DNA of 63,372 nt, filler included, from Collodictyon triciliatum (lineage: Eukaryota): NCBI GenBank assembly GCA_043381765.1. It is 4 parts of 4 records of this genome, joined end to end, with 100 filler letters (N's around TTAATTAATTAA, not from the genome) between each part and the next. Parts side by side here need not be neighbours in the genome. Positions count along the whole stretch, not along the records: positions 18,343 to 36,578 come from JBHJMP010001389.1; 3 more parts are not named here. One strand, written 5' to 3'. Shown here one piece after another: positions 15,201 through 43,639 of this stretch. Each line of letters begins with the position of its first letter. Position 1 is the stretch's first letter. The notes under the pieces were generated by a model that saw only the letters and a program-made list of their open reading frames with translations, was not told the origin of the DNA and searched no databases. Position numbers and translations under genes: made by a program.

Positions 15201-16860
15201 CAGTTACATGAGACTTCCGGTAATTGCGTTCTTTTTCTTCACTGGCTACCTAATCCTTAGCGATGAAAACAAAGACAAGGTAGTTTCTTGATGTTCTGAA
15301 AAAAAATCATCGTTTCTTTTCTTTTCTGTTGGTGAGATGGAAAACAATCTTGTGTTTTATTTCACGAAATATACTTTGAACCAAAACGTTAATGGATTTA
15401 TTGTTCACAACACAATTTCTAAAAACCACTCATAATATGTAAAACCTACATAGCTGGTATTCGTCATTCTATTCATGCTCCAGACGACATACTATGGAAT
15501 AAGTCGGGAGACATTTGGGACGTTCGGTTGCACTCTTTATGACCCATCCTCCGATGCATACTTTTTAAACTCCATTCCGTGGGTTCAGTGCAACCCAATA
15601 TCTGGAGAATACGGGCAGCTTCTAAAAATTTCCATACCCACGATGGTTCTGTATGTTTTATTGCTCCCAATTATTTTTTATGCTTTGCTTCAATCCATTC
15701 GGGATACAAAGAAGACAGACAAGGTTCAGAGAAGATATGGATTCCTCTATGTGTCTTTCCAAGAGGTAAATCCAAATCATCAATATTCCAAACATACTTT
15801 ATCATGATAGAAATGAGAAAAGAAATGAGAAAAGAAATGAAAAAAGAAAAGAAAAAAGAAAAGAAAAAGAAAAAAGAAAAGAAAAAAGAAAAGAAAAAAG
15901 AAAAGAAAAAAGAAAAGAAAAAAGAAAAGTTGATGGGGTATTCATCTTTCATTTTGATTATTTGTTAAGAGCACATTTACGGTTTTAATATTTATGGGTG
16001 ACTTGGTGGAATAATGTTGCAGATGTTTTATTTATATGATTTGTCGACATAAAAGGACTATCACTACTGGGAGATATACATTATGCTACGCAGGCTCGTG
16101 TTCAGTATGATTATGTCTGTTGTGCCATACACAGAGCCCACTGGACTCTTTGTCCTTATCTTCATCTTGCTTCAGGTACGCAAACATATCTAAATGATAC
16201 TTGTCACACATTAACATCAAAATTTATAATCAAATTTAATGAACGACTCACTAGAACATTTTTTTCTTTGCTAAAAGAACGAAATTCATGATTTGAGAGA
16301 ATTACACTGCATGATTCACATGAAAATAACACTACCTTTTCATCGCTAAAACTAACACATAAACCCTGTCTTTCACTCTGTCGAAAAAAAAGGTTTCCAT
16401 CTGGGTGCAACAATGGTGCTCTCCTTATGCACGCCCCATCGACAACCGCCTCGAGACATGGAGCCTTTATGTCATCTACTTTTCATTCTTTGGAGGAATC
16501 CTCGGCTCCTTCTACAAAGTGGCCTCGTGGCTGCCCCGCACCATCGTTTCCCTCAACGCCATCACCATCCTTGTGTTTCTGTACTACATTCTTGGTGTTC
16601 CCACATTGAGGTTCTTTCGTGACGTTTTTCGTTCAAAGGGACTCTTTTCTATCGAGAATCTCCCGGTCAGCAGCCCATCAACACCGGCCCCGTTCAGCAG
16701 CATCACTTCTATTGTGCCCGAATCTGCAGCCCACGAACTCAGTGATGACACGGGCAAAGCTATGCACAATAACAATTCGCTCACAGAGAACTCCCCACAT
16801 GCGATGTCTACATCCATCGTTTCAGTTGCAAAGCCTGCGTGGGTCTCTAAGATGGAGTGA
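12227..16860 (+). CDS. Receptor-like protein: LRR N-cap, many plant-type LRRs, Cys-rich region, multi-pass TM domain; 5' end uncertain (may start near 12.0 kb)
   Basis: GWRNHTGW...CAWYGIGC cap; repeated LxxLDLSxNxLxGxxP; CEKGYEGRLCSRC; hydrophobic segments plus RRYGFLY, YYWEIYIMLRRL and PYARPIDNRLE motifs. Confidence 0.85.
12713..12829. repeat. Intronic 10-bp tandem repeat (AAAACACATA)n
   Basis: Directly visible, about 11 copies. Confidence 0.95.
15808..15929. repeat. Intronic (AAAGAAAAAGAA)-type purine repeat
   Basis: Directly visible. Confidence 0.9.
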
Positions 16861-17341: not shown

Positions 17342-18008
17342 TTAGAAACCAGACCCGGACGCGCTGGCCGCAGAAGACCCCCAATTAAGATAGTCCTCCG
17401 ACTCGCTCGCCTGGTATTCGTTGATCAAATTCATCACAACCTCTCTATGAGAAAGAAAAAAAAGGTGAAAAACTCAAAAGGAAGAACAAAGCGTTTCTAT
17501 CCAGGGTCTAAGTCAACCAAGATTAAAAAAATATGCAAATATGATGAGGTATGAAAGATGTGATGAAGGCAATTATTTTGGATATAAACTGTAATAAGAT
17601 AGCCCTTCACATAATATCAAATGAGTTAAATTGGATGTGTTGTTAAAATATTGTCTGATTATTATTATTATTATTATTATTATGCCTTGAGTCATCAAAC
17701 TCGCCCAAATCCTCCGCAAAAAGAGCCTCCTTCTTGTACGCCTCAAGATATGCATTTTTCTTCCTCATTTTGTCGTAGTGGTCGACAGCTTTTTTCATCA
17801 ACTGGGGTGTGCGTAGAGAATTATGTTTTAATATTCAATCACGGCCTTAGTAAAAATGGGACATCACTCAAAGTTATCAGTAATTATGTTTATATAGTTG
17901 TCTACATTCTGTCTCTCTTACAATACGAATCGAGGTGTGATTGGCCATCATAAGGCCACTAACACGATGCGCAGTTTGCACATATGGCGATTTTCGAGAC
18001 AGCGCGAC
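17342..18008 (-). CDS. TUBG: Gamma-tubulin, last three exons (5' part lost at contig end)
   Basis: Spliced translation [90 protein letters not shown] matches the gamma-tubulin C-terminus. Confidence 0.92.
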
Positions 18009-18129
18009 CTTAGTGTTAGTATGCCAGTCAGTTGGATACAAAATAGCCTTTCTGTGACACCATTACTTCTTTTGACATTGCAAGTATTACAAAAACTAAA
18101 CGTAAGATGAATTGGGTAAAAACAAGACG

Positions 18130-18242
18130 AAGCAAAGCAAAGCAAAGCAAAGCAAAGCAAAGCAAAGCAAAGCAAAGCAAAGCAAAGCAAAACAAAGCAA
18201 AACAAAACAAAACAAAACAAAACAAAACAAAACAAAACAAAA
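18130..18242. repeat. (AAAGC)n-(AAAAC)n compound microsatellite at contig end
   Basis: Directly visible. Confidence 0.95.
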
Positions 18243-18342
18243 NNNNNNNNNNNNNNNNNNNNNNNNNNNNNNNNNNNNNNNNNNNNTTAATTAATTAANN
18301 NNNNNNNNNNNNNNNNNNNNNNNNNNNNNNNNNNNNNNNNNN
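18243..18342. other. Artificial contig linker N44-TTAATTAATTAA-N44
   Basis: Identical 100-nt spacer occurs three times; the core has stops in all six frames. Confidence 0.98.
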
Positions 18343-18401
18343 ATCAAAAGATAAAATAAAAATATAAGTTGATGTAATCGCTACCGTCATGAAAAACCAT
18401 T

Positions 18402-18506
18402 AAAAACCCATAAAACCCATAAAACCCATAAAACCCATAAAACCCATAAAACCCATAAAACCCATAAAACCCATAAAACCCATAAAACCCATAAAATCCA
18501 TAAAAT
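18402..18506. repeat. 9-bp tandem repeat (AAAACCCAT)n
   Basis: Directly visible, about 11 copies. Confidence 0.95.
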
Positions 18507-18658
18507 CAAAACGAACACTCTTTTTCCACTGCCTATCCTTTTTATTCAGTATCAGATCCTAGGCAAGAAATCCTTTCTTTTCCATATATCTTTTCGAGAG
18601 CGACATTCGTTTTCACCTTTTAATAAAAGCCTCACAACAAAAACAGCTTAGCTGAGCA

Positions 18659-21600
18659 ATGGAAATTGAGTGCACCTGTCCCTGTTGTGGGAAAACCTTT
18701 GCCGATCCGCGCATTCTTCCCTGCAAGCACGTTTATTGCGTCAATTGCGTCCAAAAGATGAGCAAAACGCCAGTCGATCTGCTTGACGCAAGCAAAGGAA
18801 CAAAGTCGTGCTGCTTTATCTGTGAGGCTGCGTTTACACTCACGAATGGAAAGCCAGAGAGTCTTCCGCGAGCTGAGGAATATTTGGGCTATGTCGAGAC
18901 ATATAAAAATGCGGCAACGTTTGTGTCCCTCAAATGCGTGGAGCATACAGATAAAGAGGCAATCAAGAGGTGCCTGAGCGGGTGCAGCCACATTTGCCAG
19001 GATTGTTTTTCTGCTCATAGAATTTTGTTGAAAGTTCATAAAATCGAGTACGTCATTATTCATTTTACTTTTAATATGTCAACTTAAATTAGGAAAACAT
19101 GTCTGCAGCATTTCTGCAATTCGAATGCATATACCTTTTCATTTACCTTTTTCCATTTTTTTAAAGGGATATCGACAAAACAAGGCCTGTCGTTTTTGAG
19201 AGTGCCTGTTCGAAACATGCACAACCTTTTACAAAAGTTTGTGGCAAACTCTCAGAAAACCCTTTCATGCGTGATATGTGCACTGGGAGTCACTTCGAAG
19301 AACTAGGAATTCATGAGCATGACAGCTATGAGGCTGGCACAAAGAAATTTTTTCAGCATCTCCAAGAAAACAAGGCGAAAATCGAAAAAACTGGAGACTT
19401 GATAAAAGAAAGTGAGAAAAGAGTCGAGGGAAAGCGCAAAAAGGTATCCATCGCAACTGTATTCGTTCTTTAACAATAAAAACATGAAACCTCATTATCT
19501 CTTTGGGTATAAATCAGATTGAAAATTATATCTCGGAACTGAAGAGAGAAGCGTCGAGCGAGTTCGAAAAAGCAAAGAATGCTATCGCCGAAGAGGAAAG
19601 GCGATTCATGGAGAAGGTTCATATTTTTAAGACTGTCGATTTTATCTTTGAAAATAATTGGATTTTAAGTAATTTATTCATAAAAGATTTCCCACTCACT
19701 CTCTTTCATATAGATTGACCAATTCAACAAATCCATTCTGGGGCCATATGTTGCACTCGGGGATTTCTTGGAAACGTTCAAAATTCATCTGGCGTATTCA
19801 TCAAAGTTTATTGACGAGTCTATCCTTGTGTTTACAAAAGACAAGTCGCCTCTTAAGCTGCCAACTGCAAAGCGCATTTCATATTGTGTATTGCAGAAAA
19901 AAATAGTGCAAATTCCTGAAGAAACGCAAGTTTTCTCGGAGAAAATTCCAACATTGGTTCTCTTTCCTAAAAAATCATCTGAAGTCGAATCTGTGCCAAA
20001 TTCCCAACGACTAGGCACCATAACAGGGCAAAGACAGACTGAAAAGATTTCCAATCCAAGCGCACCAACACAGTCCAACCAACCAGCCAGATCAACATCG
20101 GTGGTCATTCCAGTCAAAAACACTCCAAGAGAATCTGTTACAACCAAAATAAACCGAGTGATTGACCAGATTGGAGAGTCAACAGCTGCAATCAAACAAA
20201 AACAACTAATGGGATGCCCAGAGTATGGCGCATTGGGACAGCAGATGGGCGAGTTACAAACTTTAATGCAACAAACTGAATTCAAAGAAGCACCAAAGAA
20301 AGAGATTGGTGGCATTTTCGACAAATTATTCGAAGCAATCAAAAAGGTACAACTTAATTCATATATATGAACTTGTCTACAATTAGGAAATGATTTTATT
20401 CGTAACATCCTCAAATTATTAAAAAGGACGTAAGTTTTCTATCTTTCCAAAATATCCTGTAAATTAGCAGGTATTTTCTAATCTTGTCAAATTATATTAG
20501 TTGGTGAGTATATATAATTCATGAAAAAATAATTGAGTGCGACTTAATCTATATTTTTTCGTGAAAAAAAATTAGTTTTAATAATCACTTTTAATCGATT
20601 TCAGGTGACTATAATTTTCATTCCATTGTTATTATGATTTATTTGAATTAAAAAATGAAAATATGCTTAACAAAATTTCTGCTAAAAATGATTCAAAATC
20701 ATAGATAGTAATTTTTCTGCTTGAAAGAATAAATTCATAAATCATAAGGAAAATATACATTGTTTATGTAAATTATAGCATATGAGTATGAATTCTAACT
20801 GTTGAGTATTTTAACTGACAGATACCAAAATACTAAAATCAAATATATCGCATCATATACCTAAATTTCATTTGAAATCATAGTATGTAAAATTTTGTTA
20901 TTATTGAATAATACTATGTTATGATATTGCCAATAAACGTACGTGTGTTAATGCAAATAAGTCATGGATATGATAAAAGGAAATGCGTGTTTAACCAACG
21001 CGGACATGAATTCGTATTAATACAATATATGATTTCTGTAACTTATTTGTACATAATCATAGTATGTAAGTTTTTATTGTTCTTGGATGATACTGTATTA
21101 TGAAAATGATAAGAATCGATCGCACATGTGATTATGTAAATATGGGATGACTATTATAAAAGGAAATGCATATTCAACATACACACACGAGTTCGCAATA
21201 ATACAATATTTATGTGATTTCTGTGAATTATTTGTGCATAATCTTAGCCTGTAAGTTTTTATTGTTCTTGGATGATACTAAATTATGAAATTGAAAAAAG
21301 AAGCTTATATTTGTTAGTTATATATGTGATGACTATGATAAAGGACATGTGTGTTCAACAGACACATAAGACTACGCAATAATACAATAATTAATGATTT
21401 CTGTGACTTATTTGTACGCATAATTATAGGGAGTAAGTTTTTATTGCTCTTGAATGATAATCTATTATGAAAATGACAAGAAAGGAGCATGCATATGTTA
21501 GTGTAAATACGTAATGGTTATAATGAAAGGACATGGGTGTTGAAAAGACACACACGAAATTGCAACAATACAATAATCTATGATTTCTGTGATTAATTTG

Positions 21601-24600
21601 TGTGTAACCATAGGTTGTAAGTTTTTAATTTTCTTTGATGATAATCTATTATGAAAATGACACGAATCAAGCATACGTGTGAAAATGTAAAGATAGAATA
21701 GCTAAGATAAAAGGAAATGGGTGTTCAACTGACACACACGAGCTCGCAAAAACACAATACTGACATGATTTCTGTGACTTATTTGATTATAATCACAGAT
21801 GGTAAGTTTTTAATGCTCTTGAACGATAATATATTATGAAAATGACAAGAAAGAAGCATGCATATGTTGATGTAAATACGTAATGATTATAATGAAACAA
21901 TATGTGTGTTCAACAGAAACACATACGAATTCGCAATAATTTAATAATTATATGATTTCTCCAACTCCTTTGTCTATAATCATAGTTCGTAAGTTTCTAT
22001 TATTCTTGAATGATAATATATTATGAAAATGATAAGAAGCATACATTTATTTACCTATATACGTGAAGACAATGATAAATGAAATGAGCGTTTAACAGGC
22101 ACACACGAATTCGCAATAATACAATATTATATTATTCTGTGACTTATTTCATTATTATCATCAAAGAATGTAATTTTTTATTGTTCTTTAATGATACTGT
22201 ATTATGAAAATGATAAGAATCGATCGCACATATTATTATGTAAATATGTAATGACTATGATAAGATGAAATGTATATTTAACAGACATATACGAATTTTC
22301 AATAATAAAATATTTATACGATTTCTGTGACTTATTTGATTATAAACATAGCTTGTAAGTTTATATCGTTCTTGAATGACATTATATTATGAAAAATTAC
22401 AAATAAGAATATTTTATTTGTTTATGCATTTATGGAATTACCATGACTAAAGAAATGAAAGTGTTTAACAGACACACACGAATTCTCAATAATATAAGAA
22501 TTATATGAATTCTGTTACTTGTGTGTATAATTATAGGTTGTAAGTTCCTTTTGTTCATAAATGATACTATATTATGAAAATGACAAGAAAGAAGCATACA
22601 TTTGTGCATGTAAATATGGGATGACTATGATAAAATGAAATGTATGTTTAACAGACATATACGAATTCCCAATAATTCAATATTTGTATGATTTATGTGA
22701 CTTATTTCATTATAATCATCAAAGGATGTGAGTTTTTAATATTACTGAATCATAACCTATTATGAAAATGAAAAGAAGCATACACCTATTTATGTATAAT
22801 ATATATGGAATTACTATGATAAAAGGAAATGGGTATTCAAAAGACACACGAATTCTCAACAATTTAATAATTACAAGAATTCTGTTACTTGTGTGTATAA
22901 TTATAGTTTGTAAGTTCCTTTTGTTCATAAATGATAATGTATTATTAAAATGACAAGAAAGAAGCATACATTTGTGCATGTAAATATGGGATGGCTATGA
23001 TAAAAGGAAATGGGTGTTTAACCGGTACATGCGATTTCTCAGAAATACAATATTTTTTGTGATTTATTTTCTATTGTAATCATAGCATGTAAGTTTTTAA
23101 TGTTCTTGAACCAGTAAAATATTATAAAATGACATGAAAGAAGCATACATTTGTTTATGTAGATTTGAGATGATGAAAGGAATGAGGGTTTTTAACAGAC
23201 ACACATGAATTCTCAATAATAAAATATTTATATGATTCATGTGGCAAATTTGTTTATAATAATAGCCTGTAAGTTTCTATGATAATTGATGGCATTTTAT
23301 TATGATAATGACAAGAAAGAAGCATACATGTTTTTATGTAAATTTGGGATGAATATGATAAAAGGAATGAAAGTTTTTAACAGACACACACGAATTTTCA
23401 AAAATACAATATTTATATGATTTACTAACTCATTTTTGCGTAACAATAATAGTATGTAAGTTATTATTGTTCTTGGATACAATAAATATAAAATATCAAG
23501 GAAAAAACATAAATTTGTAAATGTAAATTTGGGATGAATATGATAAAAGGAATAAACGTTTTTTATAGACTCACACGAATTCTCAATAATATAATAATTA
23601 TATGATTTCTGTGACTTATTTGTGTTCAATCATAGCTTGTAAGTTTTTATTGTTTTTTAATGATGCCATAATACTATAAAATATCAAGGAAAAACACAAA
23701 TTTGTTTATAGATTTATGGGATGGCTATGATAAAAGAAATGGATGTTCAACAGACACACACGAATTCTCCATGATACAATATTTATATGATTTCTGTGAT
23801 TTTTTGTGCATACATATATATAGGTTGTAAGTTTTAATTATTCCCGATTGATACTATAGTATGAAAATGACAAGAATCAAGCATTCATTTGTTAATGCAA
23901 ATATGAGATGAACATGATAAAAGAAATGGAATTTCAACCGACACACTAGAATTAGTAATAACAAAATATTTATATAATTTCTGTGACTTATGTGTATAAT
24001 CGTAGTATCTAAGATATATTTGCTCTTTAATTATAAGATATTATGAAAATGAGAATAAGCAAGCACACATTTTTCCATTTAAATATGTGATGACTATGAT
24101 AAAAGGAAATGTGTGTTTAACAGACAAATGCGAATTTGAAGTAACATGTCATTTTGTGCAATTTATACGATTTATGCGCATAATTATAGTTCGTAAGTTT
24201 CTATTGTTCTTAAATGATACTATATTATGAAAATGACAAGAAACGAGCATGCTCATGTTAATGTCAATATGTGATAATATGATAAAAGGACATGCATGTT
24301 TAACCGACGCGCACATGAATTCGCAATAATACAATATATATATGTGATTTCTATGAATTTCGTGTTTAATCAAAGGATGTAAGTTTCTGTTGTTCTTTAA
24401 TGATACTATATAATGAAAATGACAAGAAAAGAGCATGCTCATGTTAATGTAAAAATGTGATGATTATGATAAAAGGAAATGTGTGTTCAACAGACACACG
24501 AAAACGAAATAATACAATATTTATATGATTACTGTGACCTTTTTATGAGTAACCATAGGGAGTGAGATTTATTGTTCTTGAATGATACTTTATTATGAAA

Positions 24601-27600
24601 ATGTTGAAATAAGTATATATTTTTACGAAAATATGTGATGGATATGATAGAAGGAAATGCGTGTTTAAAAGACACAAAAACTCGCAATAATACAATTTAT
24701 ATGATTTCTGCGAATTATTTGATTATAATCATAGCGAGTAAGTTTTTATTGTTTATGAGTGATACTTTGTTATGAAAATGACAACAAGTATACATTTGTT
24801 AATGTAAATATGTGATGATTATGACAAAAGGAAATGCGTGTTTGACAGACACACGAATTCGAAATAATACAATATTTATATGATTTCTGTGACTTATTTG
24901 ATTATAATCATAGCGAGTAAGTTTTTATTGTTTATGAGTGATACTTTATTATAAAAATGACAACAAGCATACATTTGTTAATGTAAATATGTGATGATTA
25001 TTACAAAAGGAAATGCGTGTTTGACAGACAAACGAATTCGCAATAATACAATATTTATATGATTTCTGCAATTTTTTGTGAATAATCGTAGGTTGTAAGT
25101 TTTAATTGTTCGTGAATCATACTATATTATGAAAATTACATGAAAAAACCATACTTAGTCAATGCAAATATGTGATGATTATGAAAAAAGGAAATGCGTG
25201 TTTGACAGACAAACGAATTCGCAATAATAAATTATTTATATGATTTCTGTGACTTATTTGATTATAATCATAGCGAGTAAGCTTTTATTGTTCATTAATG
25301 ATACTATAATATAAAAATGACAAGAAAAAAAGCATATTTAGTTAATATAAATATGTGATAATTATGATAAAATGAAATGAGTGTTAAACCGACACGCACG
25401 AATTCTCAACAATAAAATATTCATATGATATCTGTGACTTTTTTGTGAATAACCATAGGGAGTAAGTTTTTTGTTATTATTGAATCATAATATATTATGA
25501 ATTTGAAAAGAAAGAAGAATAAATTTATGTATTTAAAAATATGATCGATATGATAGAAGGAAATTGTTTCTTAATAGAAACACTCAAATTTGCAATAATA
25601 CAATATTTATATCATTTCTGTCACTTATTTGTGTATAATCATAGCTTGTAAATTTTCGTTCCTATTTAATTATACTTTATAATGAAAATGACAAGAAATA
25701 AGCATGTATTTGTTAATATAAATATAAAACGACTACGACAAAATGTTATGGATGTTAAATAGACACACACGAATTCGAAAAAATACAATATTTATATGAT
25801 TTTTGACTTATTTGTGTACAATCTTAGCGTGTAAGCTATTATTGTTCTTGAATGATATCGCATTTTGAAATTGTCAAGATAGAAGCATTCTTTTGTGTAG
25901 GCAAATATGAATTGACTATGATAAATGGAAATTTATTTTAAACATACAGAAACTAATCCGCAATAATACAATATTTAAATGGTTTCTGTTACTCGTTTGT
26001 AATTATGATAGGTTGTGAGTTTTTATTTTTTCAACTGATAACACAATAAGATATGAAATTTCATTAAATTAAGAAGCTATCGTTTATTATTTTCGTATGA
26101 AACTAGGAATATGTGGTTAATTTATATGATATTTAAAAGACAATTGAATTCTTAATCCAATATCAATTCAATTTTGTATGTTTTTTCTGCAAATGTCACA
26201 ATCATACAATTCCATGCATTTTAATTTCGTTTGATAAGCTGATATTAATTTTTATTCTATCTTATTCTTGATGACTGATTCAGGAGGTAAGTTTCAAGTC
26301 AATATAGGTTAAACAAAAATATGATAGTTAAAGTATGTTTAATTCTAAACCAATTAAGAGAATTAAAAATTCAAACATCATTTACGCAGAAACCAGCGGA
26401 TGTAATTTGGCGAAATTAATTCTGAATAGATTATTATATTTATTCACTTTACTAATTTTATGTTCATATTTAGCTGGTAACTAAAAGAATAATGAATTTT
26501 TATCATTCATAATTCTGAAATTATAATAACTTTACTAATTTAAATTATATCCAGGATAAGGTAAGTCAAATTCTATATCCTTTATTTTCTCCAAAATAAC
26601 AAATCGCAGTTTAATAAAATTCATTATCTATGTTGGTTAAAAACACTAGGATTTTGTGGGTTTCTAATATATTAGATTAAATATTATCTTTATTTCCAAT
26701 TCTAAGCTTTCCTTGTTTAAAATGTCACTTCTGATTATAATTATTTTAATTAAAAATTAATTTTCATTAAAAATTTATTTCAAAACATCAAATGCCATAT
26801 TTTAAAATTTTCAATAACATTCATTAAATTTTAAAGGGAGTATGCTTTCTCGAATTTTTTTTCGAAATTGAAATCAACAGTGTGCTTAATCAATTATTTG
26901 TGAAAAGGGAGTAACCATTCTTTTGATATTTTGAATATTATTCAATTAAATGAAAATAGTATTTTAAAGGATGTATTTTCTTAATCTTAAAATCAGGATG
27001 TGAGATTATAGAATCAAAATGATATTTATTTTGTAAAATATTTATGTCAACATCCAATAATTTACCAACAGGACGTAATTTGCTAATATATATAAAATTG
27101 ATAGAAACACTTTCTACTCACACATTTTTGTAAGCTGGCTGTAAGAATAATAAATTAAAATAAGACAAAAATTAAAATCCATAATATTAACCTCGTCTTT
27201 CTTTAGCTTCGGCTGGTAAAAATTACCATTTTAAAATCAAAAAGTTCAGTACAGCTATACTTCGATTCTTAATATCTTTTCCTCAGGTTAAGATTGTAAT
27301 CTGATATTTTTTGTTATTTTGGAGGGAATCAAAATTTTAATCAAATGCTGTAAAAGGCTGTAAGCTTTAATATTCATTCAAATATCAGAATATGCTTTCA
27401 GATCCTAACCATAATGTTCTACAAATTTCAATCAGCGAGAAATGGTATTTATTTTTCATCGCTCATTTAAACATCATTCATTAACTGACACACAAAACAG
27501 AAGCAACTGGTATTTTGTAATCAATTCCATCGTGTCAATTAATCTACTTCCATTCTAGAGCCTCATAATTTTCCTAGTATCAATAACATCTGCATTCTTA

Positions 27601-27930
27601 TTATTAGGCGGTTTGCTTTATAATTTTCAATTTGAAATCAAACCTTTTTTTCCTTTATTCGATTCAGATTATATTTGAAATCAGGGATGTTTTATTTACA
27701 CACTGATGATATGCTCATTTTTTTATCAGGGAGACTCGGTATACATGAACGCCTTATTCCTCATTTAAATTATCCCGTAATTGGTATCTTATAATTTCAT
27801 TCTTTTATAAAAACCTTTATTTTTAATGTTATTTCAGAATATCCACGTAAGATTTCTATTCCATTTCAATAATAAAACAATAATCCCTTAATCTTATAAG
27901 CCATGTGATTATGCTTTTGTTGCAAAATGA
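18659..27930 (+). CDS. TRIM-like RING / B-box / coiled-coil protein; conventional exons 18659-19048, 19167-19443, 19518-19616, 19714-20346, then a predicted chain of about 45 microexons and a terminal exon 27901-27930
   Basis: RING CPCC..PCKHVYCVNC..CFIC; B-box CVEH..CLSGCSHICQDCFSAH; second B-box-like CSKH; coiled coil. Exon 4 ends in phase 0 (AAG|GTAC) and downstream AG|3n|GT units continue without a stop to PCDYAFVAK*. The RBCC part is well supported; the 3' extension is inferred. Confidence 0.7.
20690..26040 (+). repeat. Tandem array of 30 AT-rich units (period 176-188 bp), each an intron-like repeat plus a variable 3-nt microexon
   Basis: Conserved ...gatttctgtgacttattt...aatcatAG|NNN|GTaagttttt...atgaaaatgacaag... 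in each unit; 29 of 30 units keep both AG and GT. Confidence 0.9.
26284..27930 (+). other. Series of 3-, 6-, 9- and 12-nt in-frame microexons separated by non-repetitive ~55-180-nt introns, plus terminal exon
   Basis: AG|exon|GT at 26284-6, 26390-401, 26474-6, 26555-60, 26650-5, 26837-9, 26908-10, 26997-9, 27072-4, 27135-40, 27207-15, 27287-95, 27357-9, 27436-44, 27501-9, 27608-10, 27730-8, 27838-46. Confidence 0.7.
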
Positions 27931-30900
27931 AATTTAAACCGAAGCCTCCAAAAACAATTAATCATTCTGGGAACAGCAGGGATAAGGTTTTATTTCATAT
28001 CAAACACATTTATGTTAGTCCTCTTCATTCTTTTAAAATAGAAATATGTAATGTTATTTTTTTGTTGACCTAACTACTGATTCGAAAATGCAGCCAGACT
28101 ATTCATTTTTTTATGGTCGCTTGGATAAGTGCGACTCTCGAGTTGTAAGTGTCTCGATTTCAAAATTGGTTGACGTTCTCTTGAATTAAATTTTATAACT
28201 TTATTAATCAATTATGAATTTCTTTAAAAAGAAATGCGACGGCGCTGACTTGACTCTTCTCATCTCTTCCTCTTGCTTCTACTTCTCACACTCTCACGGC
28301 CGGGTTTTTTTAAGCACAAGCTTTTTTCCCGAGAGCCATTCCCCTTATTCTACTTTCATTCTTTCATCCACTACCGAAACACAAATAAAAATGAAAACAG
28401 AACCAGATGAATAAGATTCCTTCCTTGATTTACAAAAAGAATGTCTGTTTTTGGATTAAAAACGGTAATTAATAGGCCAAAATACTATAACCATACTGCA
28501 CACCAGCAATGCTGTAAAAAAGCTTGCTGTATTTTAACATGAATAATTCCATTTACTTGTTGATGTTAAATGTCACTTGTTTTAAATATTAATGCGTGCT
28601 ATGTTTATCTCTCGAAAATATTGTCCTTTTGGAAAACCTAAGTAACGAATAGATTTTTCATCAAAATACGTAATAGTTTCTTAGTTTGATTATATCAAAT
28701 ATTATGCTAAATACAACCAGGTTAAATATTTTTGAACTGGATATCTATGAAGGGCAAACAATAAAAAAAATTTGGAATATGGTCTGGACAATTAGACTCA
28801 TGAAAGTTTTGTCAAAATGACCATTCATGAAAGCAATTTCAAATGGGTAATTTTTCCTCTTTTTTGAAATTTCAGATAGTTCTCTTAAATTATAATCAAT
28901 CACAAACAAGAGTGACAAAATGATTTTATTAAAGAAAATCAGACGAAATAGAGAAGAATTGTTTTTTTTTAAGAAAAGTGTTTAAGTTTCCAAGGAAAAG
29001 AAACAGTGCTTTAATAATTGAAATTCCGACGGTGATATTCACCGTTTTGAAAATCATTATTGGTCCAAAATAGCATGTTACATTCATTCCTATCCTTTTG
29101 TATTGTTTCTTGTTTTCTTAAAATTCTATTGAAGAAAACTGGAGTCGACTCAGCATCCCAACAGACCAAGGTTATCGAGATATGAACTAAATTTTTTGAA
29201 TGCTTAGTTGAAGTTTTTTGAAACTTTTTATGAATCAATACTCTTCAGTTTAGCGGGCATTAAAAATTCCACTCTTTGTCTCAGATAATCCTCTATTACG
29301 AAGGTTACACATTTGAAGACTACTCATGTATGACATGGCCACAAAATATAAAGGGAAGAATTTCTATCCGTATTGCAGCCTAAAAACTTGAAGTGAATTA
29401 TTAATATCTTTTGCACAAAATATTGTCTCTCAAGATGCAAGTCTTCAGCACGTTCTCAGGAAGTCGTTTTTTCCTCGAAAATTCCCTTAAAAGAGTGAAC
29501 TCTATTTTTTTGGAGATAAAACCGAAAATTTTCATATAATTTGTCTATAGTTTAAATTCGATAAGATAAATATTCGAAGAGGAAATGAAGTATATAGCAG
29601 ACTATAACTATTTATGTGACTCATCGTTTCCTTCCTCGCCCAGGTTTTTTTTGTATTTTCGTCTTTTTATAACGCTCAGATTTATCGGAACCGGTGGCAA
29701 TTTTTCTCAACTATTCATGTATTTCATTTACAAAATAAGTGTATTGCACGAATAATGGCCACTATTTTGTTCTGAAAGGGCAATAGCACAGAGACACCCT
29801 TTCTATCTCAATTTTTTTTTGTTAAATTTCGGATTATTTGTCTGAAGAGTTCATTTTCGAATTTTGATGAGGAATGATAGCCAACTAAAGCATAATAAAT
29901 AGAATTCATAGCTAATAAATGGGGCAATATATTTAATATGGGCGATTTATTTACGAGACTCCACAATATTCAATTTGGATGTAATTTGATGATATCTGTT
30001 GCAATAACAGATAATTGATTTGAATGCGATGAAGGCACACTCTCTTCTATGCGGTTATATTTATACATTTAATTATAGCGAGTCTATTTTCTCAGAAAAT
30101 TTGGTATATGGTTCACTAGAATCAGTGACATCAAAAGCGCTATATTATCTCTTAGAAGTCCGATGTATTTCTGCATCATTAACTGAAACAATAATACGAA
30201 ATGACGTTGCATATTCAAAAAAATTTTCCATGGTCGAACTCAAGAAATACAAAAACTTTACAACATCTAATATTAGAATGACCAGCGTCAATAACTTTCG
30301 TTACCCGATGAAAATCAGTATGACATATTTCGATTACAAAATTCTTGATCTTGACTCTGTCAAATCCAAAATCACGGATCATAATATATTTTCTATCAGG
30401 CAACATGAAATCAGCTAAAATCAGCTAAACTGATAACGATTATGTCGCCAATGATTACTTTCCTTCCATTCAATTATAACCGAGCCTTAATTTTAGTTGA
30501 CTTTAAAATGCGACACAAAAAACACTGGGCTTTACGTGTGCAGATAATTCGTGTCCATGTTATTGAATTCATAATCATTTCCTTGCTTACAAAAAATATC
30601 ATTAATTAGATCTTACCGATAGATATTGATAAAATTTGGTCCTTTGTTTGCACGCGTTGAATGTATAGTTTCGGGGTACTCTTCAGACATTCCAGCGTGA
30701 CTTCTTCTGTGATGATTACAAGGCTGATTATTTCTGTACTTGCCCCAAATCAATGGACTTTAAGAATTATAGGCTATATGCCCCATAAAATTTGCACATA
30801 TAGACTGATATTGCCATTATATTCAATAGCCGTATAGGTATGAACGTGGATAATCGCTTTTGAAGAGAAAAAGACGAGAGTGACGTCAGGATTGGTACTA

Positions 30901-31928
30901 CAAACAGAAAAGATATCATATTCTCTTCATTCAATTTTCCGCTGCTCATTTTATTTATTGTGACGCGGAGATCTTAACTCCAAAATTTTAGTCAGAAAAG
31001 AAAGTAGCTAATTAAAATTCAACTGATTAGAAATGAGCAAACTGAACCTTACATTTCCCAAGGAAACAGTCTCAATTGGAGCCTAGTCAAGCCAATTTTG
31101 AATTATTTGGACACCTCTTCTATTGATATGCTACACCATCATCTCTGTAGCAAGAGAGAGACCTTCCCTTTTTTCGCTTCATAATAACCCAAATCGATTT
31201 TATGTCTCTTGGAGTTAAAAAAATCTCTAAATAGACAAAATCATGGCGGTTATGTGATTCTCTTAATTTCATCTACCTTGCCCGAGAAAATACCAAAGCA
31301 TTGTAAAAAAAAGAAGAAAATAAGAAAGTTATTTATGTAACGAGATAGCATTGGAACCCATAAATCATTTGAATATGATGATACATGTATGTGTGCTATT
31401 GCCTCAGCAAAATACTCCCGTCTCTTAGTGACTCCCTTTCAATCATCTGAATGCGATTAGTGAATGTGTCAGGTGGATTCCTCTGAACTCACTTGGAACA
31501 ACTAAATATCGAATAATTAGTTTTCGCTTGGAGTTTCTTTACTTCGGGCGATGTGGATACCCACTCCCTTTCTACGCACGCTTATTTATTATTTTTGGAA
31601 AAGAATCTGGTTTATGGCAAAGCGAAAGAATCATTTATTCATTATTGCGAAGGTTTGCTATCATTTTTTGTGGGAATTTTCGTACATATGCGCGACGCTT
31701 TGCAAAGCCATTAAGCCTGGATACAGCCTCTGGCTGAGCGAATTATTGAATCGCATCGTGTCGTCTTCCTCCGGTCAAACGAGATCTGGTCGGTTGAGGG
31801 ATCAGGCCTCGCATAACAAGTGCCGCGTCCTTCCTTGCCTCTTCGTCAACATTTTTTTGTTATTGTTATTTTTATTATTATTATTGTTATTATTATTATC
31901 ATTATGACTGACAGGTTGTCCAGCGCCC

Positions 31929-34429
31929 ATGGGAAACAGCAACAAGAAGGCTGCGCAAGATGAAGCTGTAGCAAAGATCGACACTATCTTATTGGAGGGG
32001 TCAGACACGCCAAGCAATGCAACACGCCTCCTTCTTGACTTTAAAAAGATCGATTCGCTCATGTCTCCGATATCTCGTCTCAAAGATCTGGAGATCCTCG
32101 CACTCAATCATACACGTGTGTCTTTCCTCCCTGAGTGGATTTCTGTGTTGAAGAAGCTGAGAAGACTTTCTGTATTCGAGACGCTTGTAAGTGTACCATA
32201 TTTCACAGCTCTCGTGAAGTCATTTTATGTTTATAGTTTTATATGTAATTGTATTTGCATTTGCATCTATTTTATTTGTTTTATATGTATTATTTCTATT
32301 ATTTGCTTGTATTTGTTTCTGTATTAGTATTTGTATTGTATTTATATTGTATTTATATCGTATTTGTATTGTATTTTTATTGCATTTGTTTTATTTGTAT
32401 TATATTTATTTATACTTATTTGCATTTCATAACTTATTTGTGACGGTGACAGGTTGAATACTTACCGGATGCAATCACACACTTGACGGCTCTCGACACG
32501 CTCCAAATTGAATATCGCGGACATATATGTGTTAAAAGAGCTCATGCAGCCACACAGGCTTTGCCATGTTGGCACAACACAACAGAGCCACCAAGTGGGA
32601 TGTTAATGCCGTGTTCTGAGGCACTGAAAAAATTGGAATTGTATGATTGCGTCATGGCAAATAAGCTTATTGCAGATGTCTCTGTTTTCATAGACGATTG
32701 GAAAGTACTTTGCTCCATCGACCTTTCATTCAATAAGGTAACTTGGTTTTTTGTTCGTTTTTGTTCGTTTTTGTTCTTTTTGTATACATCCGCGCAAACC
32801 TGACCCTGGTTAATCCTTTAGATATCATTCTTGCCCACCACCCTTTCGCAACTGCAAAAACTGGAAATGATTTCACTTAGTCACAATTGCGTAATCCATA
32901 TATGCAAAAAAAAAAAATCATGTTTATAATCGCTTCTTGAAATGTTCTTTTCTGTTGTCGTTTCCCATTGCTCTATTTTTTTATTTTTTTTTTACTGCGT
33001 AAACGCTCCTTCTTGTATTATGATAGTTGATCAATATACCTGGACCTTTGTTGAGTATTCCAAATCTCCGGCACCTTTGTTTATCACAAAATAAGGTTTG
33101 GCTGATATTTCTCTCCAATAACAGATTACATGTATATTGCGATTTTTATGTCATGCTGATTCCTTTGCAGATTACGGAGATTCCTCCAACAATTACATCA
33201 TTATCAGGACTTTCCTGTCTAAATTTGAAAAATAACCTTGTAAGTTAAAGCTGGTTACGGTTGTACTGCCCGAAAGGATAGCCAGTTATAGGAGTCTTTT
33301 TTTTCTTTTATATCTCTAAAAACACACTTTCATCTTAATTCCCTTTTTCAATCAACAGTTGTCATATTTGCCGGCTTCTTTCTCTTCTCTGCTTCATCTA
33401 AAACACCTCAACCTCTCTCACAATCAGGTAATATGAATAACTGTGTGCCCTTAACCCACCCCACATGATTCTTAAGATTTTCATATTTAGTTCACTGAAG
33501 TTCCTGATCTTTGCGGCCTCGAATCATTGCTTCTTTTTGACATCGCGCACAATTGTCTTTCTCCTTATATCCAAAAAACAATTGATGATTTATCGACCCA
33601 CCGGGATGTTGCCAATCTACAATATCAAAGATTATCTGAAATCCCATCGCTCTTGCAGATGGTTTTGCGAAAATTCAAAGCGATAAATATATGGAGCAAT
33701 CATGTATGTCCTTACTATTGCTCTATTGAAGCACGCATTGTTTTGAGCTGCCACTTTTTCGACCAAGTCGAATATCAACATGTGTATCCCCCCCCCCCCC
33801 TTACAGATTCCAGTATTTCGAATATACATCTGACTTGAAGACATATTTTTAGATTTCTGACCTTCCATTATGGTTTTTTCGGTTGGAAAGGCTTTGTGAA
33901 TTGGACATATCAATCAACAAACTTTCTTCGCTTCCCGAGGAGGTTTCGATGCTGACTTCACTCAAGGTACTTAATATCTCCAGCAACTACATTTCGGTCC
34001 TCCCGGATTCCATCTCGCTGCTGGCAGGCCTCAGGAGCGTCAATATTAGTCGTAATCAAGTTTGTTTCTCGATATATGTGACGTGAAGTAATATGTAAGA
34101 GATGTAATCTTTGTATTAAAAAAAAAGCCTTAACCTGCACCTCCATGAGCCAGTTTCCTGAGCTTCCATTCGTCATTTGCTCCATGGTTGAAATTATATC
34201 TCTCGACTTCTCACATAACAAGGTTTTTGTGATGCAATCGAATTTCGATGTGTTGTTTTCTTCCTTCCATTTTGTACTAAGGATTTTGAATACATTCACC
34301 AGATAGTAATTCTGTCAGTGCCAAACAATTAGCATGTATAGACACAACAACCGTATCTGAATTGATAAACCTTATTATTCTATCTTTTTATCCTATCAAA
34401 AAAAAACTTAGATACGTGAGATTGCATAA
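31929..34429 (+). CDS. Intracellular LRR protein with N-myristoylation-type start (MGNSNKK), multi-exon
   Basis: Repeated LPxxxxxLxxLxxLxLSxN; several exons are exactly 69 nt (one LRR); end coordinate tentative. Confidence 0.8.
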
Positions 34430-34982: not shown

Positions 34983-36578
34983 TTATTCGTGTGAGTCGGA
35001 AGGATGAGATCGAATGAAAGAAAGTAAAAAGGAGGTTAAGCAAAATGCTTCACTTGGCGCGCAACTCGTCACGGGCCCTCCTCCTATCCAAGCGATGTTG
35101 AATAAATCACACAAGTATGTCGAATCATTCGTTGAACAAAAAACAGTGTTGCAAAAGTTTGGGGAAGAAGAGAAAGAGGATGACCCAGAAACTTGTGACA
35201 GGTTATGAGTGGAACAGGAAGCAGTTATGGTAAAAACAGATATTGGGAAGCGTTGTTGTACCTCAGAGCCACTTTCGTAAATCGCAAGCTCCACGTTTCC
35301 TTTTGCCTTTGAACGAAGCAGTGTGTATTGCTCGCTGATGCTGCGGTGGCGATTCCACAACACACCTACCACAACCAAAAGGAAAATAACCACTGCGACG
35401 GAGCCGACAACCGCCATCACCGGAACAGGGAATTCATCTGAACCGTATTAATTCGTATTTAAGATGAAGGTGGCTTGTTGTAGTGATGCTAGAAGAGTTG
35501 AGGCAAGTCAAGTCAAGTCAAGTCAAGTCAAGTCAAGTCAAGTCAAGTCAAGTCAAGTCAAGTCAAGTCAAGTCAAGTCAAGTCAAATCAAATCAAATCA
35601 AATCAAATCAAATCAAATCAAATCAAATCAAATCAAATCAAATCAAATCAAATCAAATCAAATCAAATCAAATAGCGAATAGAGCTATGAATGAGGAAGT
35701 TAAGTTTTGTTTGGCCTTTTCTGGTTTGCCCACAATACCGCAGTCCTCGATAATATCTTTCGGTTCGTCTCCAAAGCAGGTGGAAAGTTTCAGATGTGTT
35801 GTCAAGCGTCGACCGTTTTCGCAGCGCCCTTGGAAAGGCTTCAGGTCAGCGGCCTTGCAAACGGGGCATCCATACTTTGAAGTCCAGCGGATGACGTGGT
35901 TGCATTCTTCTTCTGTAGCGTTGAAGACAGGAATCCCCTTTTCGTAGTTCGGGTCACATTCGAATCGTATAGTGCTAGCGGTTAATTTGTTCATTTATTT
36001 ATTTTAATCAATTGTAATTCTTAATTTTGTCTGTGAATAAGATTATAAGTTTGGATAAATTAATGCCGTTCGAATCTCAAAGATTGTATTGTTGTCAGCC
36101 ATACGTTGAGAGACCGTCGGGACATTTCTTTGTGGATTTTCCATTGGAATAGATAACGACCAGGCCTTCCAGTCCCTGGGCTAAGATATGGGTGGAATTG
36201 TTTTAATAGGTATGTATATTAAGACTTAGATTACAAACACATCAGGATACATGACATGGGCATGCTTAATTAGGTTGGTGTTGATTATATTCTCACCGAA
36301 ACTCATGTAGCTTCCTGTGTTTGAGTGACTATCGACAGAACTTGCCTTCATTTTGTAAAGTGGTATTTTATTAAAAAAAAAAAAAAAAAGTAATCGTAAA
36401 GTGACGGCTTCGGGGGTGTGAGAAAAATAGGAGAAAGCATACCTAAGAAACATCAACGCGTCTAAAAATATTGCAATATAATATGTCCTTACAAAAAAAA
36501 AATTAAAGGGAGAAAATACCATGCAAGCAAACGGCTGTTGGGAGCACAGCGAATCCACTGGCGTGGGCCTCTTGCACA
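34983..36578 (-). CDS. C-terminal part of a type I membrane protein with an MRH (mannose-6-phosphate-receptor homology)-like domain, ELAPOR/KIAA1324-like; 5' truncated by gap
   Basis: STIRFECDP...ECNHVIRWTSKYGCPVC, Cys-rich linker, TM VMAVVGSVAVVIFLLVVVGVLW, cytosolic YTLL motif; 3' end uncertain. Confidence 0.65.
35504..35672. repeat. Intronic compound microsatellite (AAGTC)n-(AAATC)n
   Basis: Directly visible. Confidence 0.95.
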
Positions 36579-36678
36579 NNNNNNNNNNNNNNNNNNNNNN
36601 NNNNNNNNNNNNNNNNNNNNNNTTAATTAATTAANNNNNNNNNNNNNNNNNNNNNNNNNNNNNNNNNNNNNNNNNNNN
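36579..36678. other. Artificial contig linker
   Basis: N44-TTAATTAATTAA-N44. Confidence 0.98.
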
Positions 36679-43200: not shown

Positions 43201-43634
43201 GAAAGAGAAAAAAGGAAAAGAAAAGAAGAAATGAAATGAAAAATGAAAAAAGAAAAAAGACAAAGAAGAAACAAACTGCTCGCGTCCATCCTTTCGTTCG
43301 AGATCGGAACCGGGGACGAGACCCGCTTCAAAGGTGGGAGTCCGTCCCCCACGTATGCAATTGCGTTTGCGAGGTGCGGCGGAGTCGGTGGGCCGGAGGA
43401 GGCGGCTGAGCTGAGATCAGACTTTGACTCGGGGCGCGACGCCTGCGGCTGTGCGAAGGGCGCATCGTCCGTGGGAGTTGTGTAGCCCGAGCGGATCGGC
43501 AGCGGCGGCGGAGGCGGAGGCGGCAGCGGAGGCGTCGGGGAAGCAGACGGGGACGGCGGTTCGCTTCCGATCGCCTCTGTTGTGCCGCTCGTGTGGGACG
43601 CAGAGAGTGGAGATGGGGTGTGTTCTTGGCTCAT
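37275..43634 (-). CDS. VIP1: Inositol hexakisphosphate/diphosphoinositol-pentakisphosphate kinase (PPIP5K/Vip1), multi-exon
   Basis: [51 protein letters not shown], phosphatase [49 protein letters not shown]. Confidence 0.96.
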
Positions 43635-43639
43635 GCTTT

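What the first reader, a model, noticed from the sequence alone, without database searches (positions are those of the whole stretch)
26284..27930. Second, non-repetitive microexon chain that spells a plausible protein C-terminus
After the array, AT-rich DNA with no ORFs contains regularly spaced AG|3n|GT islands: GAG, AAACCAGCGGAT, CTG, GATAAG, GATTTT, GGA, GGA, GAT, GAC, CTGGCT, CTTCGGCTG, GTTAAGATT, GCT, CGAGAAATG, AAGCAACTG, GCG, GGAGACTCG, AATATCCAC, then AAG|CCATGTGATTATGCTTTTGTTGCAAAATGA. Joined in phase 0 they read EKPADLDKDFGGDDLALRLVKIAREMKQLAGDSNIHPCDYAFVAK*, which includes an amphipathic helix-like stretch. All are multiples of 3 and most are GC-richer than their flanks. Because these introns are unique sequence, this supports the microexon reading independently and suggests an older, diverged part of the system. 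I picked the exons by eye, so some may be wrong or missing (26040-26280 is unresolved).
Basis: partly seen in the sequence, partly recalled or inferred. Interest (0 to 1): 0.85.

Follow-up and report, generated by a model that had tools for sequence, protein, structure and literature searches.

The report
Chain of codon-sized exons ending a gene
The AT-rich DNA after a tandem repeat holds about 19 tiny, evenly spaced, splice-site-flanked islands, each a multiple of three bases, which most likely form the microexon-encoded tail of a RING/B-box gene, although no RNA data could be found to prove it.

Summary
All 19 islands lie at the stated coordinates, flanked by AG and GT.

Chance is excluded.
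- A chain search finds 18 stop-free AG|3n|GT[A/G] islands spaced 45-220 nt. The mean in 2000 dinucleotide shuffles is 1.5 and the maximum 6; none of the 2000 reached 18.
- The opposite strand gives 2, and non-3n length sets give 1 and 2.
- Neighbouring AT-rich DNA gives 1-4. The maximum in 208 other windows is 11.

The islands have exon-like GC (0.50, against 0.23 for the spacers). Donors are enriched for GTA, and branch-like motifs lie upstream of the acceptors. The spacers are unrelated to the 185-bp array unit, but a few units are old paralogues of one another.

Best reading, at confidence 0.72: these are phase-0 microexons completing the RING/B-box gene at 18659-20345. This resembles schistosome micro-exon genes but is more extreme.

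Not shown: transcription or splicing. No RNA run was listed, no genome is held, and no relatives were found. The amphipathic-helix claim is not significant.

The parts
18659..19047 (+). Exon 1 of the host gene. It has the start codon, a RING finger and a weak B-box match.
   Evidence: Pfam: zf-RING_UBOX E = 1.1e-5, zf-C3HC4 E = 2.1e-5. The zf-B_box match scores 19.5 bits, below the 24.1 cut-off. The exon end was read from ORF continuity.
19167..19443 (+). Exon 2, an ordinary exon
   Evidence: ORF continuity across a 119-nt GT..AG intron. No Pfam match.
19518..19616 (+). Exon 3, an ordinary exon
   Evidence: ORF continuity across a 74-nt GT..AG intron, phase 0.
19714..20345 (+). Exon 4, 210 codons, an orphan sequence. 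It ends in phase 0 at a GT donor. If that donor is not used, a stop follows after 8 codons (20368-20370).
   Evidence: No Pfam family. One weak hit among 1.84 billion representatives. No usable Atlas hit.
20658..26083 (+). Context: a tandem array of about 29 units of about 185 bp. Each unit carries AG, three variable bases and GTAAG.
   Evidence: TRF: period 185, 28.1 copies. HMM hits fall only in this interval. The three-base column set is the least conserved of 185 triplets (0.348 against a mean of 0.703), while AG is invariant.
26107..26112 (+).
   Evidence: AG/GT flanks, and a member of the best chain. It gives introns of 92 and 171 nt.
26284..26286 (+). 3-nt microexon
26390..26401 (+). 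12-nt microexon
26474..26476 (+). 3-nt microexon. A TACTAAT-like motif lies upstream.
   Evidence: (D6)
26555..26560 (+). 6-nt microexon. A TACTAAT-like motif lies upstream.
   Evidence: (D6)
26650..26655 (+). 6-nt microexon
26837..26839 (+). 3-nt microexon. Its unit is paralogous to those at 26908, 26970 and 27608.
   Evidence: (D7, D10)
26908..26910 (+). 3-nt microexon
   Evidence: D7
26970..26999 (+). Two alternative 3-nt microexons with the same codon (26970-72 and 26997-99), 24 nt apart. Only one can be used.
27072..27074 (+). 3-nt microexon
27135..27140 (+). 6-nt microexon
27207..27215 (+). 9-nt microexon
27287..27295 (+). 9-nt microexon. A nested acceptor would give a 3-nt form (27293-95).
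27357..27359 (+). 3-nt microexon
27436..27444 (+). 9-nt microexon
27501..27509 (+). 9-nt microexon. A nested acceptor would give a 6-nt form (27504-09).
27608..27610 (+). 3-nt microexon with a weaker GTT donor. Its unit is paralogous to the one at 26837.
   Evidence: GTT donors also occur in ordinary introns of this window.
27730..27738 (+). 9-nt microexon
27838..27846 (+). 9-nt microexon
27901..27930 (+). Terminal coding piece: 9 codons plus a TGA stop, preceded by an AG acceptor. The extent of the 3' UTR is unknown.

Best explanation
The interval 26284-27930 is the 3' end of a spliceosomal, protein-coding gene of a eukaryote. The first four exons of that gene are ordinary (18659-20345) and encode a RING finger, a probable B-box and an orphan region.

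After exon 4, which ends in phase 0, the reading frame is carried by a long run of phase-0 microexons. First come the single-codon exons of the 185-bp tandem array. Then comes the chain examined here: about 18 microexons of 3, 6, 9 or 12 nt, separated by 54-181-nt AT-rich introns. The chain ends in a 30-nt coding piece with the stop codon.

Inferred mechanism. Each short intron is recognised as a unit (intron definition) and removed in order as transcription proceeds. Each tiny exon is therefore already attached to the growing upstream exon when its own donor is used. Donors that tend to be stronger than in ordinary introns (GTAA at 11 of 18, against 3 of 11) would make up for the lack of exonic sequence.

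Inferred origin. A module of one small exon plus one intron was repeatedly duplicated in tandem. The introns then diverged, and occasional exact intron loss would fuse 3-nt exons into 6-, 9- and 12-nt exons and keep every length a multiple of three.

Shown: the anatomy, the statistics and the splice-signal content. Inferred: that the chain is transcribed, spliced and translated, the order of splicing, and the origin.
For: 1. 3n-specific, strand-specific excess. There are 25 3n islands against 8.5 +/- 2.8 in shuffles (none of 2000 reached 25), while non-3n islands are as expected (14 against 12.7). The best chain has 18 islands, against a shuffle mean of 1.47 and maximum of 6. The minus strand gives 2 and non-3n length sets give 1 and 2. 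208 other windows reach at most 11, and adjacent AT-rich DNA gives 1-4.
2. Only 1 of 24 3n islands contains a stop codon, and that one is not in the chain.
3. Island GC is 0.50, against 0.23 for the spacers. The gene's ordinary exon 4 has 0.41.
4. Splice signals. Donor +3 is A at 15 of 18 chain donors, against 11 of 37 other GT dinucleotides (P = 3.7e-4). YTRAY lies 9-42 nt upstream of 15 of 19 acceptors, against a background of 0.43 (P = 0.0018). No acceptor has G at -3 (0 of 19).
5. Spacer lengths of 54-181 nt resemble the gene's own introns of 119, 74 and 97 nt.
6. Exon 4 ends in phase 0 and every island is 3n, so the frame runs unbroken to the TGA at 27928-30.
7. Independence from the array. 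The unit HMM hits only 20658-26083.
8. Some chain units are old paralogues in which AG and GT are kept while the codon changed (26837 against 26970 and 27608, z = 4.6-4.8; D7 and D10).
9. In the neighbouring array, the codon columns are the least conserved of 185 triplets, while AG is invariant and GT nearly so. This pattern is expected if the splice sites are under selection.
10. Codon usage of the 45 codons fits the window's coding exons better than composition-matched random codons do (2.8% of simulations reach it).
Against: - There is no evidence of transcription or splicing of any kind.
- No homologue of exon 4 exists that could show a matching tail: 1 weak hit of 1.84 billion representatives, and nothing in metagenome contigs.
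- The joined peptide could not be handed to any database search, so its protein-likeness rests on a weak codon test (P about 0.03). The amphipathic moment is not significant (8.2% of shuffles reach it).
- Five of 19 acceptors are AAG, and one donor is GTT.
- Several exon choices are ambiguous (26970 or 26997; nested acceptors at 27293 and 27504; other 18-30-nt stop-free islands listed).
- Ordinary genes mapped in the same window showed exons of about 60-1700 nt and no microexons: the inositol pyrophosphate kinase gene and the Rad51 pieces. The organism is therefore not shown to splice 3-nt exons elsewhere.
- The stronger-donor trend (GTAA at 11 of 18 against 3 of 11) was counted by eye and is not significant on its own.
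- The chain-search parameters were chosen after I had seen the region, although they were applied identically to all controls.
Confidence: 0.72

Rival explanations
1. Fossil or silent tail. The chain was once a working microexon tail, or arose as a by-product of array turnover, but is no longer part of the mature mRNA. The gene now ends 8 codons past exon 4, at the stop at 20368-20370, or the region is spliced out as a whole.
For: Reading through the exon 4 donor gives a stop after 8 codons. One array unit (24007) has already lost its donor. No expression evidence was obtainable. Exon 4 has no relatives that could show a tail is needed.
Against: All 19 AG/GT pairs, all 3n lengths and the stop-free frame are intact, although the spacers have diverged beyond detection from the array unit and mostly from each other. 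Neutral decay should have broken some of them. Island GC remains exon-like.
Confidence: 0.13
2. Non-coding array of splice sites. The spaced AG..GTA elements act at the RNA level and the retained bases have no coding role. For example, they could drive stepwise (recursive-like) removal of a 7.6-kb AT-rich intron. Or they could be repeated U1-binding sites that protect an AT-rich transcript from premature polyadenylation.
For: Donors in the chain tend to be closer to the GTAAGT consensus than donors of ordinary introns in the window (11 of 18 against 3 of 11 with GTAA; read). The region is very AT-rich. The recursive-splicing and U1-protection models are recalled from the literature and were not tested here.
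Against: A non-coding role does not explain why only 3n lengths are in excess, why stops are avoided, or why the frame connects exon 4 to a stop. Classical recursive sites have no bases between AG and GT.
Confidence: 0.06
3. The exons are the same, but their origin differs. An ancestral ordinary 3' exon was fragmented by many independent intron insertions (introner-like elements), not built up by duplication of exon-plus-intron modules.
For: The spacers are mostly unrelated to one another and to the array unit. Intron-generating elements are known in several protist lineages (recalled, not tested).
Against: Independent insertions would not all fall in phase 0. Several units do show residual paralogy that includes the exon and its splice sites. 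No dispersed copies of any spacer were seen elsewhere in the window (for the array unit only).
Confidence: 0.07
4. Chance pattern in AT-rich intergenic DNA, picked out by eye.
For: AG and GT are short and frequent (61 AG and 55 GT in the region).
Against: None of 2000 shuffles reach the observed counts or chain length. The opposite strand, non-3n length sets, adjacent AT-rich DNA and 208 other windows all fall far below.
Confidence: 0.01

Closest known systems
Schistosome micro-exon genes (MEGs)
   Same: Both have runs of very short, symmetric (multiple-of-three) exons that can be dropped without breaking the frame, attached to conventional exons. MEGs are described as composed mainly of exons of 36 bp or less, with splicing-based protein variation (passages read in PMC8293314).
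   Different: The exons here are 3-12 nt, and eight or nine of them are single codons. They make up only the C-terminal part of the coding sequence. The protein starts with a RING finger and shows no signal peptide by reading. Introns are 54-181 nt. There is no sequence relation. The organism has no close relative in the protein database: best identities for a conserved kinase are 43-53%. Alternative splicing is untested.
Isolated 3-nt microexons of animals (Drosophila homothorax micro-Ex8; the human MAP4K5 three-base exon)
   Same: A single codon flanked directly by an acceptor and a donor and kept in the mRNA (PMC7392893 and PMC8632122; titles and abstract starts seen in the listing only).
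   Different: Those are single exons within otherwise ordinary genes. Here eight or nine single-codon exons and ten of 6-12 nt follow each other, after about 29 more in a tandem array.
Recursive splice (ratchet) sites in long introns
   Same: An acceptor is immediately followed by a strong GTAAGT-like donor, repeated along a long AT-rich stretch, implying ordered stepwise splicing (recalled knowledge, no paper read).
   Different: Recursive sites have zero bases between AG and GT and leave nothing in the mRNA. Here 3n bases lie between them, and the 3n constraint points to translation.
Intron gain by tandem genomic duplication
   Same: Duplication of a segment that carries AG..GT creates a new spliceable intron (PMC4974935 and PMC3265369; abstract starts seen in the listing only). 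Residual paralogy between units here and the neighbouring array fit repeated use of that route.
   Different: The known cases are single events that restore the original mRNA. Here each duplication would add a codon-sized exon, many times over.
Small microexons of plants (<=15 nt) missed by annotation
   Same: Exons too short for gene finders and read aligners (PMC8831610; abstract start seen in the listings).
   Different: The plant cases are reported as evolutionarily conserved and crucial for gene function. Here they form a long lineage-specific chain in an orphan tail.

Membership tests
Micro-exon gene architecture (schistosome MEG sense) | Exons are short (<=36 bp) and symmetric (multiples of three) | tested here: met
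   All 18 internal islands are 3, 6, 9 or 12 nt. The excess is specific to 3n lengths.
Micro-exon gene architecture (schistosome MEG sense) | The gene is composed mainly of micro-exons | tested here: not met
   Four ordinary exons of 389, 277, 99 and 632 nt carry most of the coding sequence. The chain adds 138 coding nt and the array about 29 codons.
Micro-exon gene architecture (schistosome MEG sense) | The product is exposed or secreted, and belongs to the schistosome-restricted families | tested here: not met
   The N-terminus is a RING finger and no hydrophobic leader is visible by reading. No signal-peptide predictor was run. No homologues were found at all.
Micro-exon gene architecture (schistosome MEG sense) | Protein variation through differential splicing of the micro-exons | not testable with these tools
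   No RNA run could be obtained and no genome is held. Alternative sites exist in the DNA (26970 or 26997; 27293; 27504).
Spliceosomal GT-AG introns (for the spacers) | GT donor, AG acceptor, a branch-like motif, and lengths in the organism's range | tested here: met
   Comparison introns were read.
Spliceosomal GT-AG introns (for the spacers) | Removal from the transcript | not testable with these tools
   No RNA run could be obtained for this stretch.
TRIM-like / RBCC E3 ligases (host gene) | N-terminal RING finger | tested here: met
   zf-RING_UBOX scores 25.7 bits (cut-off 25.2) and zf-C3HC4 scores 24.7 bits (cut-off 21).
TRIM-like / RBCC E3 ligases (host gene) | B-box zinc finger after the RING | tested here: inconclusive
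   zf-B_box: E = 0.0011, 19.5 bits, below the 24.1 cut-off.
TRIM-like / RBCC E3 ligases (host gene) | Coiled coil after the B-box | not tested
   Only an impression from the charged, heptad-like sequence of exons 2-3.
Recursive splice sites | The acceptor AG is directly abutted by a donor GT (a zero-length exon) | tested here: not met
   3-12 bases lie between AG and GT at every site.
Introner-like intron-generating elements | Many dispersed, similar copies acting as introns in unrelated genes | tested here: inconclusive
   Within the window the array unit occurs only in the array, and the chain spacers are mostly unique. The rest of the genome could not be searched.

The most novel reading that the evidence does not exclude
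The tail of this RING/B-box protein is built and varied one codon at a time. Each module of one tiny exon plus one intron is a unit that can be duplicated in the genome and skipped in the transcript. Because every exon is phase 0 and 3n, a single gene could then produce a very large combinatorial family of C-terminal tails on an E3-ligase scaffold. That would be a protist counterpart of splicing-based diversity systems. The hypervariable codon within conserved splice sites in the neighbouring array and the duplicated alternative sites in the chain are what such a system would look like in DNA.
Probability: 0.15. Interest if true: 0.95.

Novelty: new variant of a known kind. Interest (0 to 1): 0.8.

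Why it matters
If it is transcribed as predicted, this gene holds one of the most extreme exon-intron structures described. About 18 consecutive exons of 3-12 nt follow about 29 single-codon exons, all in phase 0.

It would matter in four ways.
- It would show that intron-defined splicing can handle long runs of codon-sized exons.
- It would give a living example of coding sequence growing by duplication of exon-plus-intron modules.
- It would provide a second, independent case of the micro-exon gene idea outside schistosomes.
- It exposes a blind spot. No gene finder would predict this tail, and short-read aligners cannot seed 3-nt exons, so such tails could be widespread and unseen.

Five literature searches found isolated 3-nt exons and the schistosome genes, but no chain or array of codon-sized exons.

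Tried and rejected
- RNA evidence. The look-up of sequencing runs on window:18600-28300 with kind rna listed no RNA holder. Read laying could therefore not be used.
- Whole genome. None is held for this window, so paralogues and dispersed copies could not be sought.
- Relatives of the gene. The exon 4 protein gave 1 weak hit (E = 8.7e-5, 31% identity) against 1.84 billion representatives. It gave no usable hit in the ESM Atlas.
- Metagenome contigs. The search for related loci matched 211 pattern stretches, but none was confirmed. A DNA pattern spanning two adjacent microexons and their splice sites gave 0 matches.
- Placing the organism. A conserved inositol pyrophosphate kinase ORF reached only 43-53% identity to anything in the database. 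No close relative or own proteome is present there.
- Rfam on 18000-30000 gave no family at gathering score.
- A positive control for microexons in a conserved gene of the window found only ordinary exons. Profile positions 804-850 were not placed by the search, and a later by-eye reading suggested they lie in a longer ordinary exon.
- The amphipathic-helix claim is not significant.
- The joined peptide was not submitted to any sequence, family, structure or fold search.
Full report
**Setting**

The window is eukaryotic nuclear DNA with short GT-AG introns. Ordinary genes surround the finding:
- Rad51 pieces at about 3955-4650 (Pfam E = 1e-27 to 1e-29);
- an AAA ATPase;
- a leucine-rich-repeat ORF;
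- a GAF-domain ORF;
- an inositol pyrophosphate kinase on the minus strand at about 37900-42300.

The kinase reaches only 43-53% identity to anything in a 5.8-billion-cluster database. The organism therefore has no close relative there, and its own proteome is absent.

**Host gene**

A gene starts on the + strand at 18659. Exon 1 (to 19047) carries a RING finger and a sub-threshold B-box match. Reading ORF continuity across GT..AG pairs gives:
- exon 2, 19167-19443;
- exon 3, 19518-19616;
- exon 4, 19714-20345;
- introns of 119, 74 and 97 nt.

Exon 4 is an orphan. It has no Pfam family, one weak hit among 1.84 billion representatives and no Atlas hit. It ends on a complete codon at a GT donor. 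If that donor is not used, a stop follows after 8 codons.

From about 20000 to 29000 the GC content falls to 0.22-0.30. A 185-bp tandem array of 28 copies by TRF occupies 20876-26027. Each unit contains AG, three bases and GTAAG.

**Checking the observation**

No + frame of the region is open for more than 52 codons.

I found five points of detail.
- The two identical 3-nt islands at 26970 and 26997 are only 24 nt apart, so they are alternatives.
- Nested acceptors would shorten the islands at 27287 and 27501.
- The island at 27608 has a GTT donor.
- Several longer stop-free AG..GT stretches (18-30 nt) exist, but they lie too close to better candidates.

**Is it more than chance?**

Yes, by a wide margin, and in a way that is specific to coding.

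- Island counts. AG|x|GT islands with x = 3, 6, 9 or 12 number 25 in the region. The mean in 2000 dinucleotide-preserving shuffles is 8.5 +/- 2.8, the maximum is 19, and none of the 2000 reached 25. Islands of the six other lengths from 4 to 11 number 14, against 12.7 expected. The opposite strand has 12 and 15.
- Chain length. I ran a chain search for stop-free 3n islands with a GTA or GTG donor, spaced 45-220 nt. It finds 18 in 26030-27900. Shuffles give a mean of 1.47 and a maximum of 6, and none of the 2000 reached 18. The opposite strand gives 2, and length sets 4/7/10/13 and 5/8/11/14 give 1 and 2.
- Other DNA. The adjacent AT-rich DNA at 27950-31870 gives 1-2 on the + strand and 1-4 on the minus strand. 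208 other windows of the same size outside the locus give a mean of 3.6 and a maximum of 11.

I chose the search parameters after seeing the region, but every control used the same parameters.

**Do the spacers look like introns and the islands like exons?**

- Composition. Island GC is 0.50 and spacer GC is 0.23. Exon 4 of the same gene has 0.41.
- Donors. Of 55 GT dinucleotides in the region, 18 are chain donors. 15 of those 18 are followed by A, against 11 of the other 37 (Fisher P = 3.7e-4).
- Branch-like motifs. A YTRAY motif lies 9-42 nt upstream of 15 of 19 acceptors, against a background of 0.43 (P = 0.0018). Two adjacent introns share a TACTAAT-like block (D6).
- Acceptors. None of the 19 has G at -3.
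- Lengths. Spacers are 54-181 nt, like the gene's own introns.
- Stops. Only one of 24 3n islands contains a stop, and it lies 12 nt from another donor and is not in the chain.
- Donor strength, counted by eye. GTAA occurs at 11 of 18 chain donors, against 3 of 11 donors of ordinary introns in the window. This is a trend only. It fits tiny exons needing strong intronic signals.
- Codon usage. The 45 codons fit a table built from 2149 codons of the window's ordinary exons better than composition-matched random codons do. The log-odds is 5.3 bits against -5.3 +/- 5.6, and 2.8% of simulations reach it. This is modest support.
- Amphipathic helix. The proposed helix is not significant: the maximum 18-residue moment is 0.523 and 8.2% of shuffled peptides reach it.

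**Independence from the array, and origin**

An HMM of the 30 aligned array units hits only 20658-26083. It finds nothing in 26084-27935 even at E = 10 with filters off. The chain is therefore not a degraded continuation of the same repeat, and it counts as separate evidence.

It is not entirely unique sequence, however. The units around 26837, 26908 and 26970 share their exon-proximal flanks (D7 and D10). The unit at 26837 also aligns over about 60-80 nt with those at 26970 and 27608 (z = 4.6 and 4.8 against shuffles). In these pairs AG and GT are retained while the three bases between them differ.

In the array itself, the three-base columns are the least conserved of 185 adjacent-column triplets. 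Their mean pairwise identity is 0.348, against 0.703 overall. AG is invariant, and G, T and the +4 A of the donor are at 0.93-1.0.

Both observations fit growth by tandem duplication of a module of one small exon plus one intron, with selection keeping the splice sites and the frame while the codon is free to change. Exact loss of an intron between two such exons would give 6-, 9- and 12-nt exons and keep every length a multiple of three. The 3n rule therefore does not by itself prove exon skipping.

**Most likely mechanism (inferred)**

The short introns are recognised by intron definition and removed in order during transcription. Each microexon is therefore already joined to a long upstream exon when its own donor is used. 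The frame runs from the end of exon 4 through the array and the chain to the stop at 27930, adding roughly 80 residues to the protein, of which 45-47 come from this chain. I put this at 0.72.

The rivals are:
- a silent or fossil tail (0.13);
- a non-coding array of splice or U1 sites (0.06), which does not explain the 3n specificity or the avoidance of stops;
- the same exons with a different origin, by many intron insertions into one ancestral exon (0.07), which does not explain the uniform phase 0;
- chance (0.01).

**What could not be done**

- No RNA run was listed for the locus, so no reads could be laid.
- No whole genome is held.
- Two metagenome scans found nothing.
- The joined peptide could not be handed to database, family or structure tools.
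- A positive control for microexons in a conserved gene found only ordinary exons of roughly 60-1700 nt.

Splicing of 3-nt exons in this organism therefore rests entirely on the sequence statistics of this one locus.

**Comparison with what is known**

The nearest described architecture is the schistosome micro-exon gene. These genes are composed mainly of exons of 36 bp or less that are symmetric and can be removed without breaking the frame (passages in PMC8293314). This locus shares the symmetric micro-exon run but fails other defining features. Micro-exons are only the C-terminal minority of the coding sequence, the product starts with a RING finger and not a secretion signal, and there is no homology. 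It works like such a gene but is not a member of those families.

Single 3-nt exons are known in animals (listing), and intron gain by tandem duplication is known as single events (listing). Five literature searches found no description of a chain or array of codon-sized exons. Supplementary files were not consulted.

**Verdict**

The microexon reading is the best explanation, but it is unproven at the RNA level. I rate it a new, more extreme variant of a known kind of gene architecture, with an interest score of 0.8.

Noticed in passing
window 20876-26027 (array); codon columns at e.g. 21063-65, 21248-50 ... 26012-14: In the 185-bp array, the three bases between AG and GTAAG are the least conserved of 185 adjacent-column triplets (0.348 against a mean of 0.703). 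AG is invariant. None of the 29 triplets with intact flanks is a stop. The unit at 24007 has lost its donor (CT in place of GT).
   Followed up: partly
window 20427-20503: Three unique 3-nt AG|NNN|GT islands lie between exon 4 and the array, at 20427, 20468 and 20501. They are only 38 and 30 nt apart, shorter than any spacer in the chain. They are more likely alternatives than consecutive exons.
   Followed up: no
window 18130-18241 and 18403-18505; also 15800-15960, 35480-35700, 43600-44100: There are many long microsatellites: a 5-nt unit repeated 22 times and a 9-nt unit repeated 11 times just upstream of the gene. Lysine/glutamine-like low-complexity ORF artefacts from similar repeats occur elsewhere in the window.
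   Followed up: no
window 18243-18342, 36579-36678, 54894-54993: Six runs of exactly 44 N occur in three pairs, each pair separated by 12 bases. They look like masking or scaffold gaps next to simple repeats.
   Followed up: no
window 19048, 19444, 19617; minus strand 42116, 40303, 39857, 39612, 39420, 39036, 38612, 38362: Donors of ordinary introns in this window are weakly conserved beyond GT. GTT, GTAC and GTAT forms are frequent, and GTAA occurs in 3 of 11, read by eye. AAG acceptors also occur in ordinary introns.
   Followed up: partly
window 37900-42320, minus strand: An inositol hexakisphosphate / diphosphoinositol-pentakisphosphate kinase gene has ordinary exons, including small ones of about 84 and 99 nt at 39613-39695 and 39421-39519. 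Its best database identities are only 43-53%.
   Followed up: partly
window 38885-40089, + strand: The longest 3n-island chain outside the locus has 11 islands. It lies antisense to the kinase gene in G-rich DNA and looks like chance.
   Followed up: partly
window 31908-32160, + strand: An ORF begins with a Met-Gly start that looks like a myristoylation signal and continues into a leucine-rich-repeat-like sequence. It has no Pfam match at E <= 0.001.
   Followed up: no
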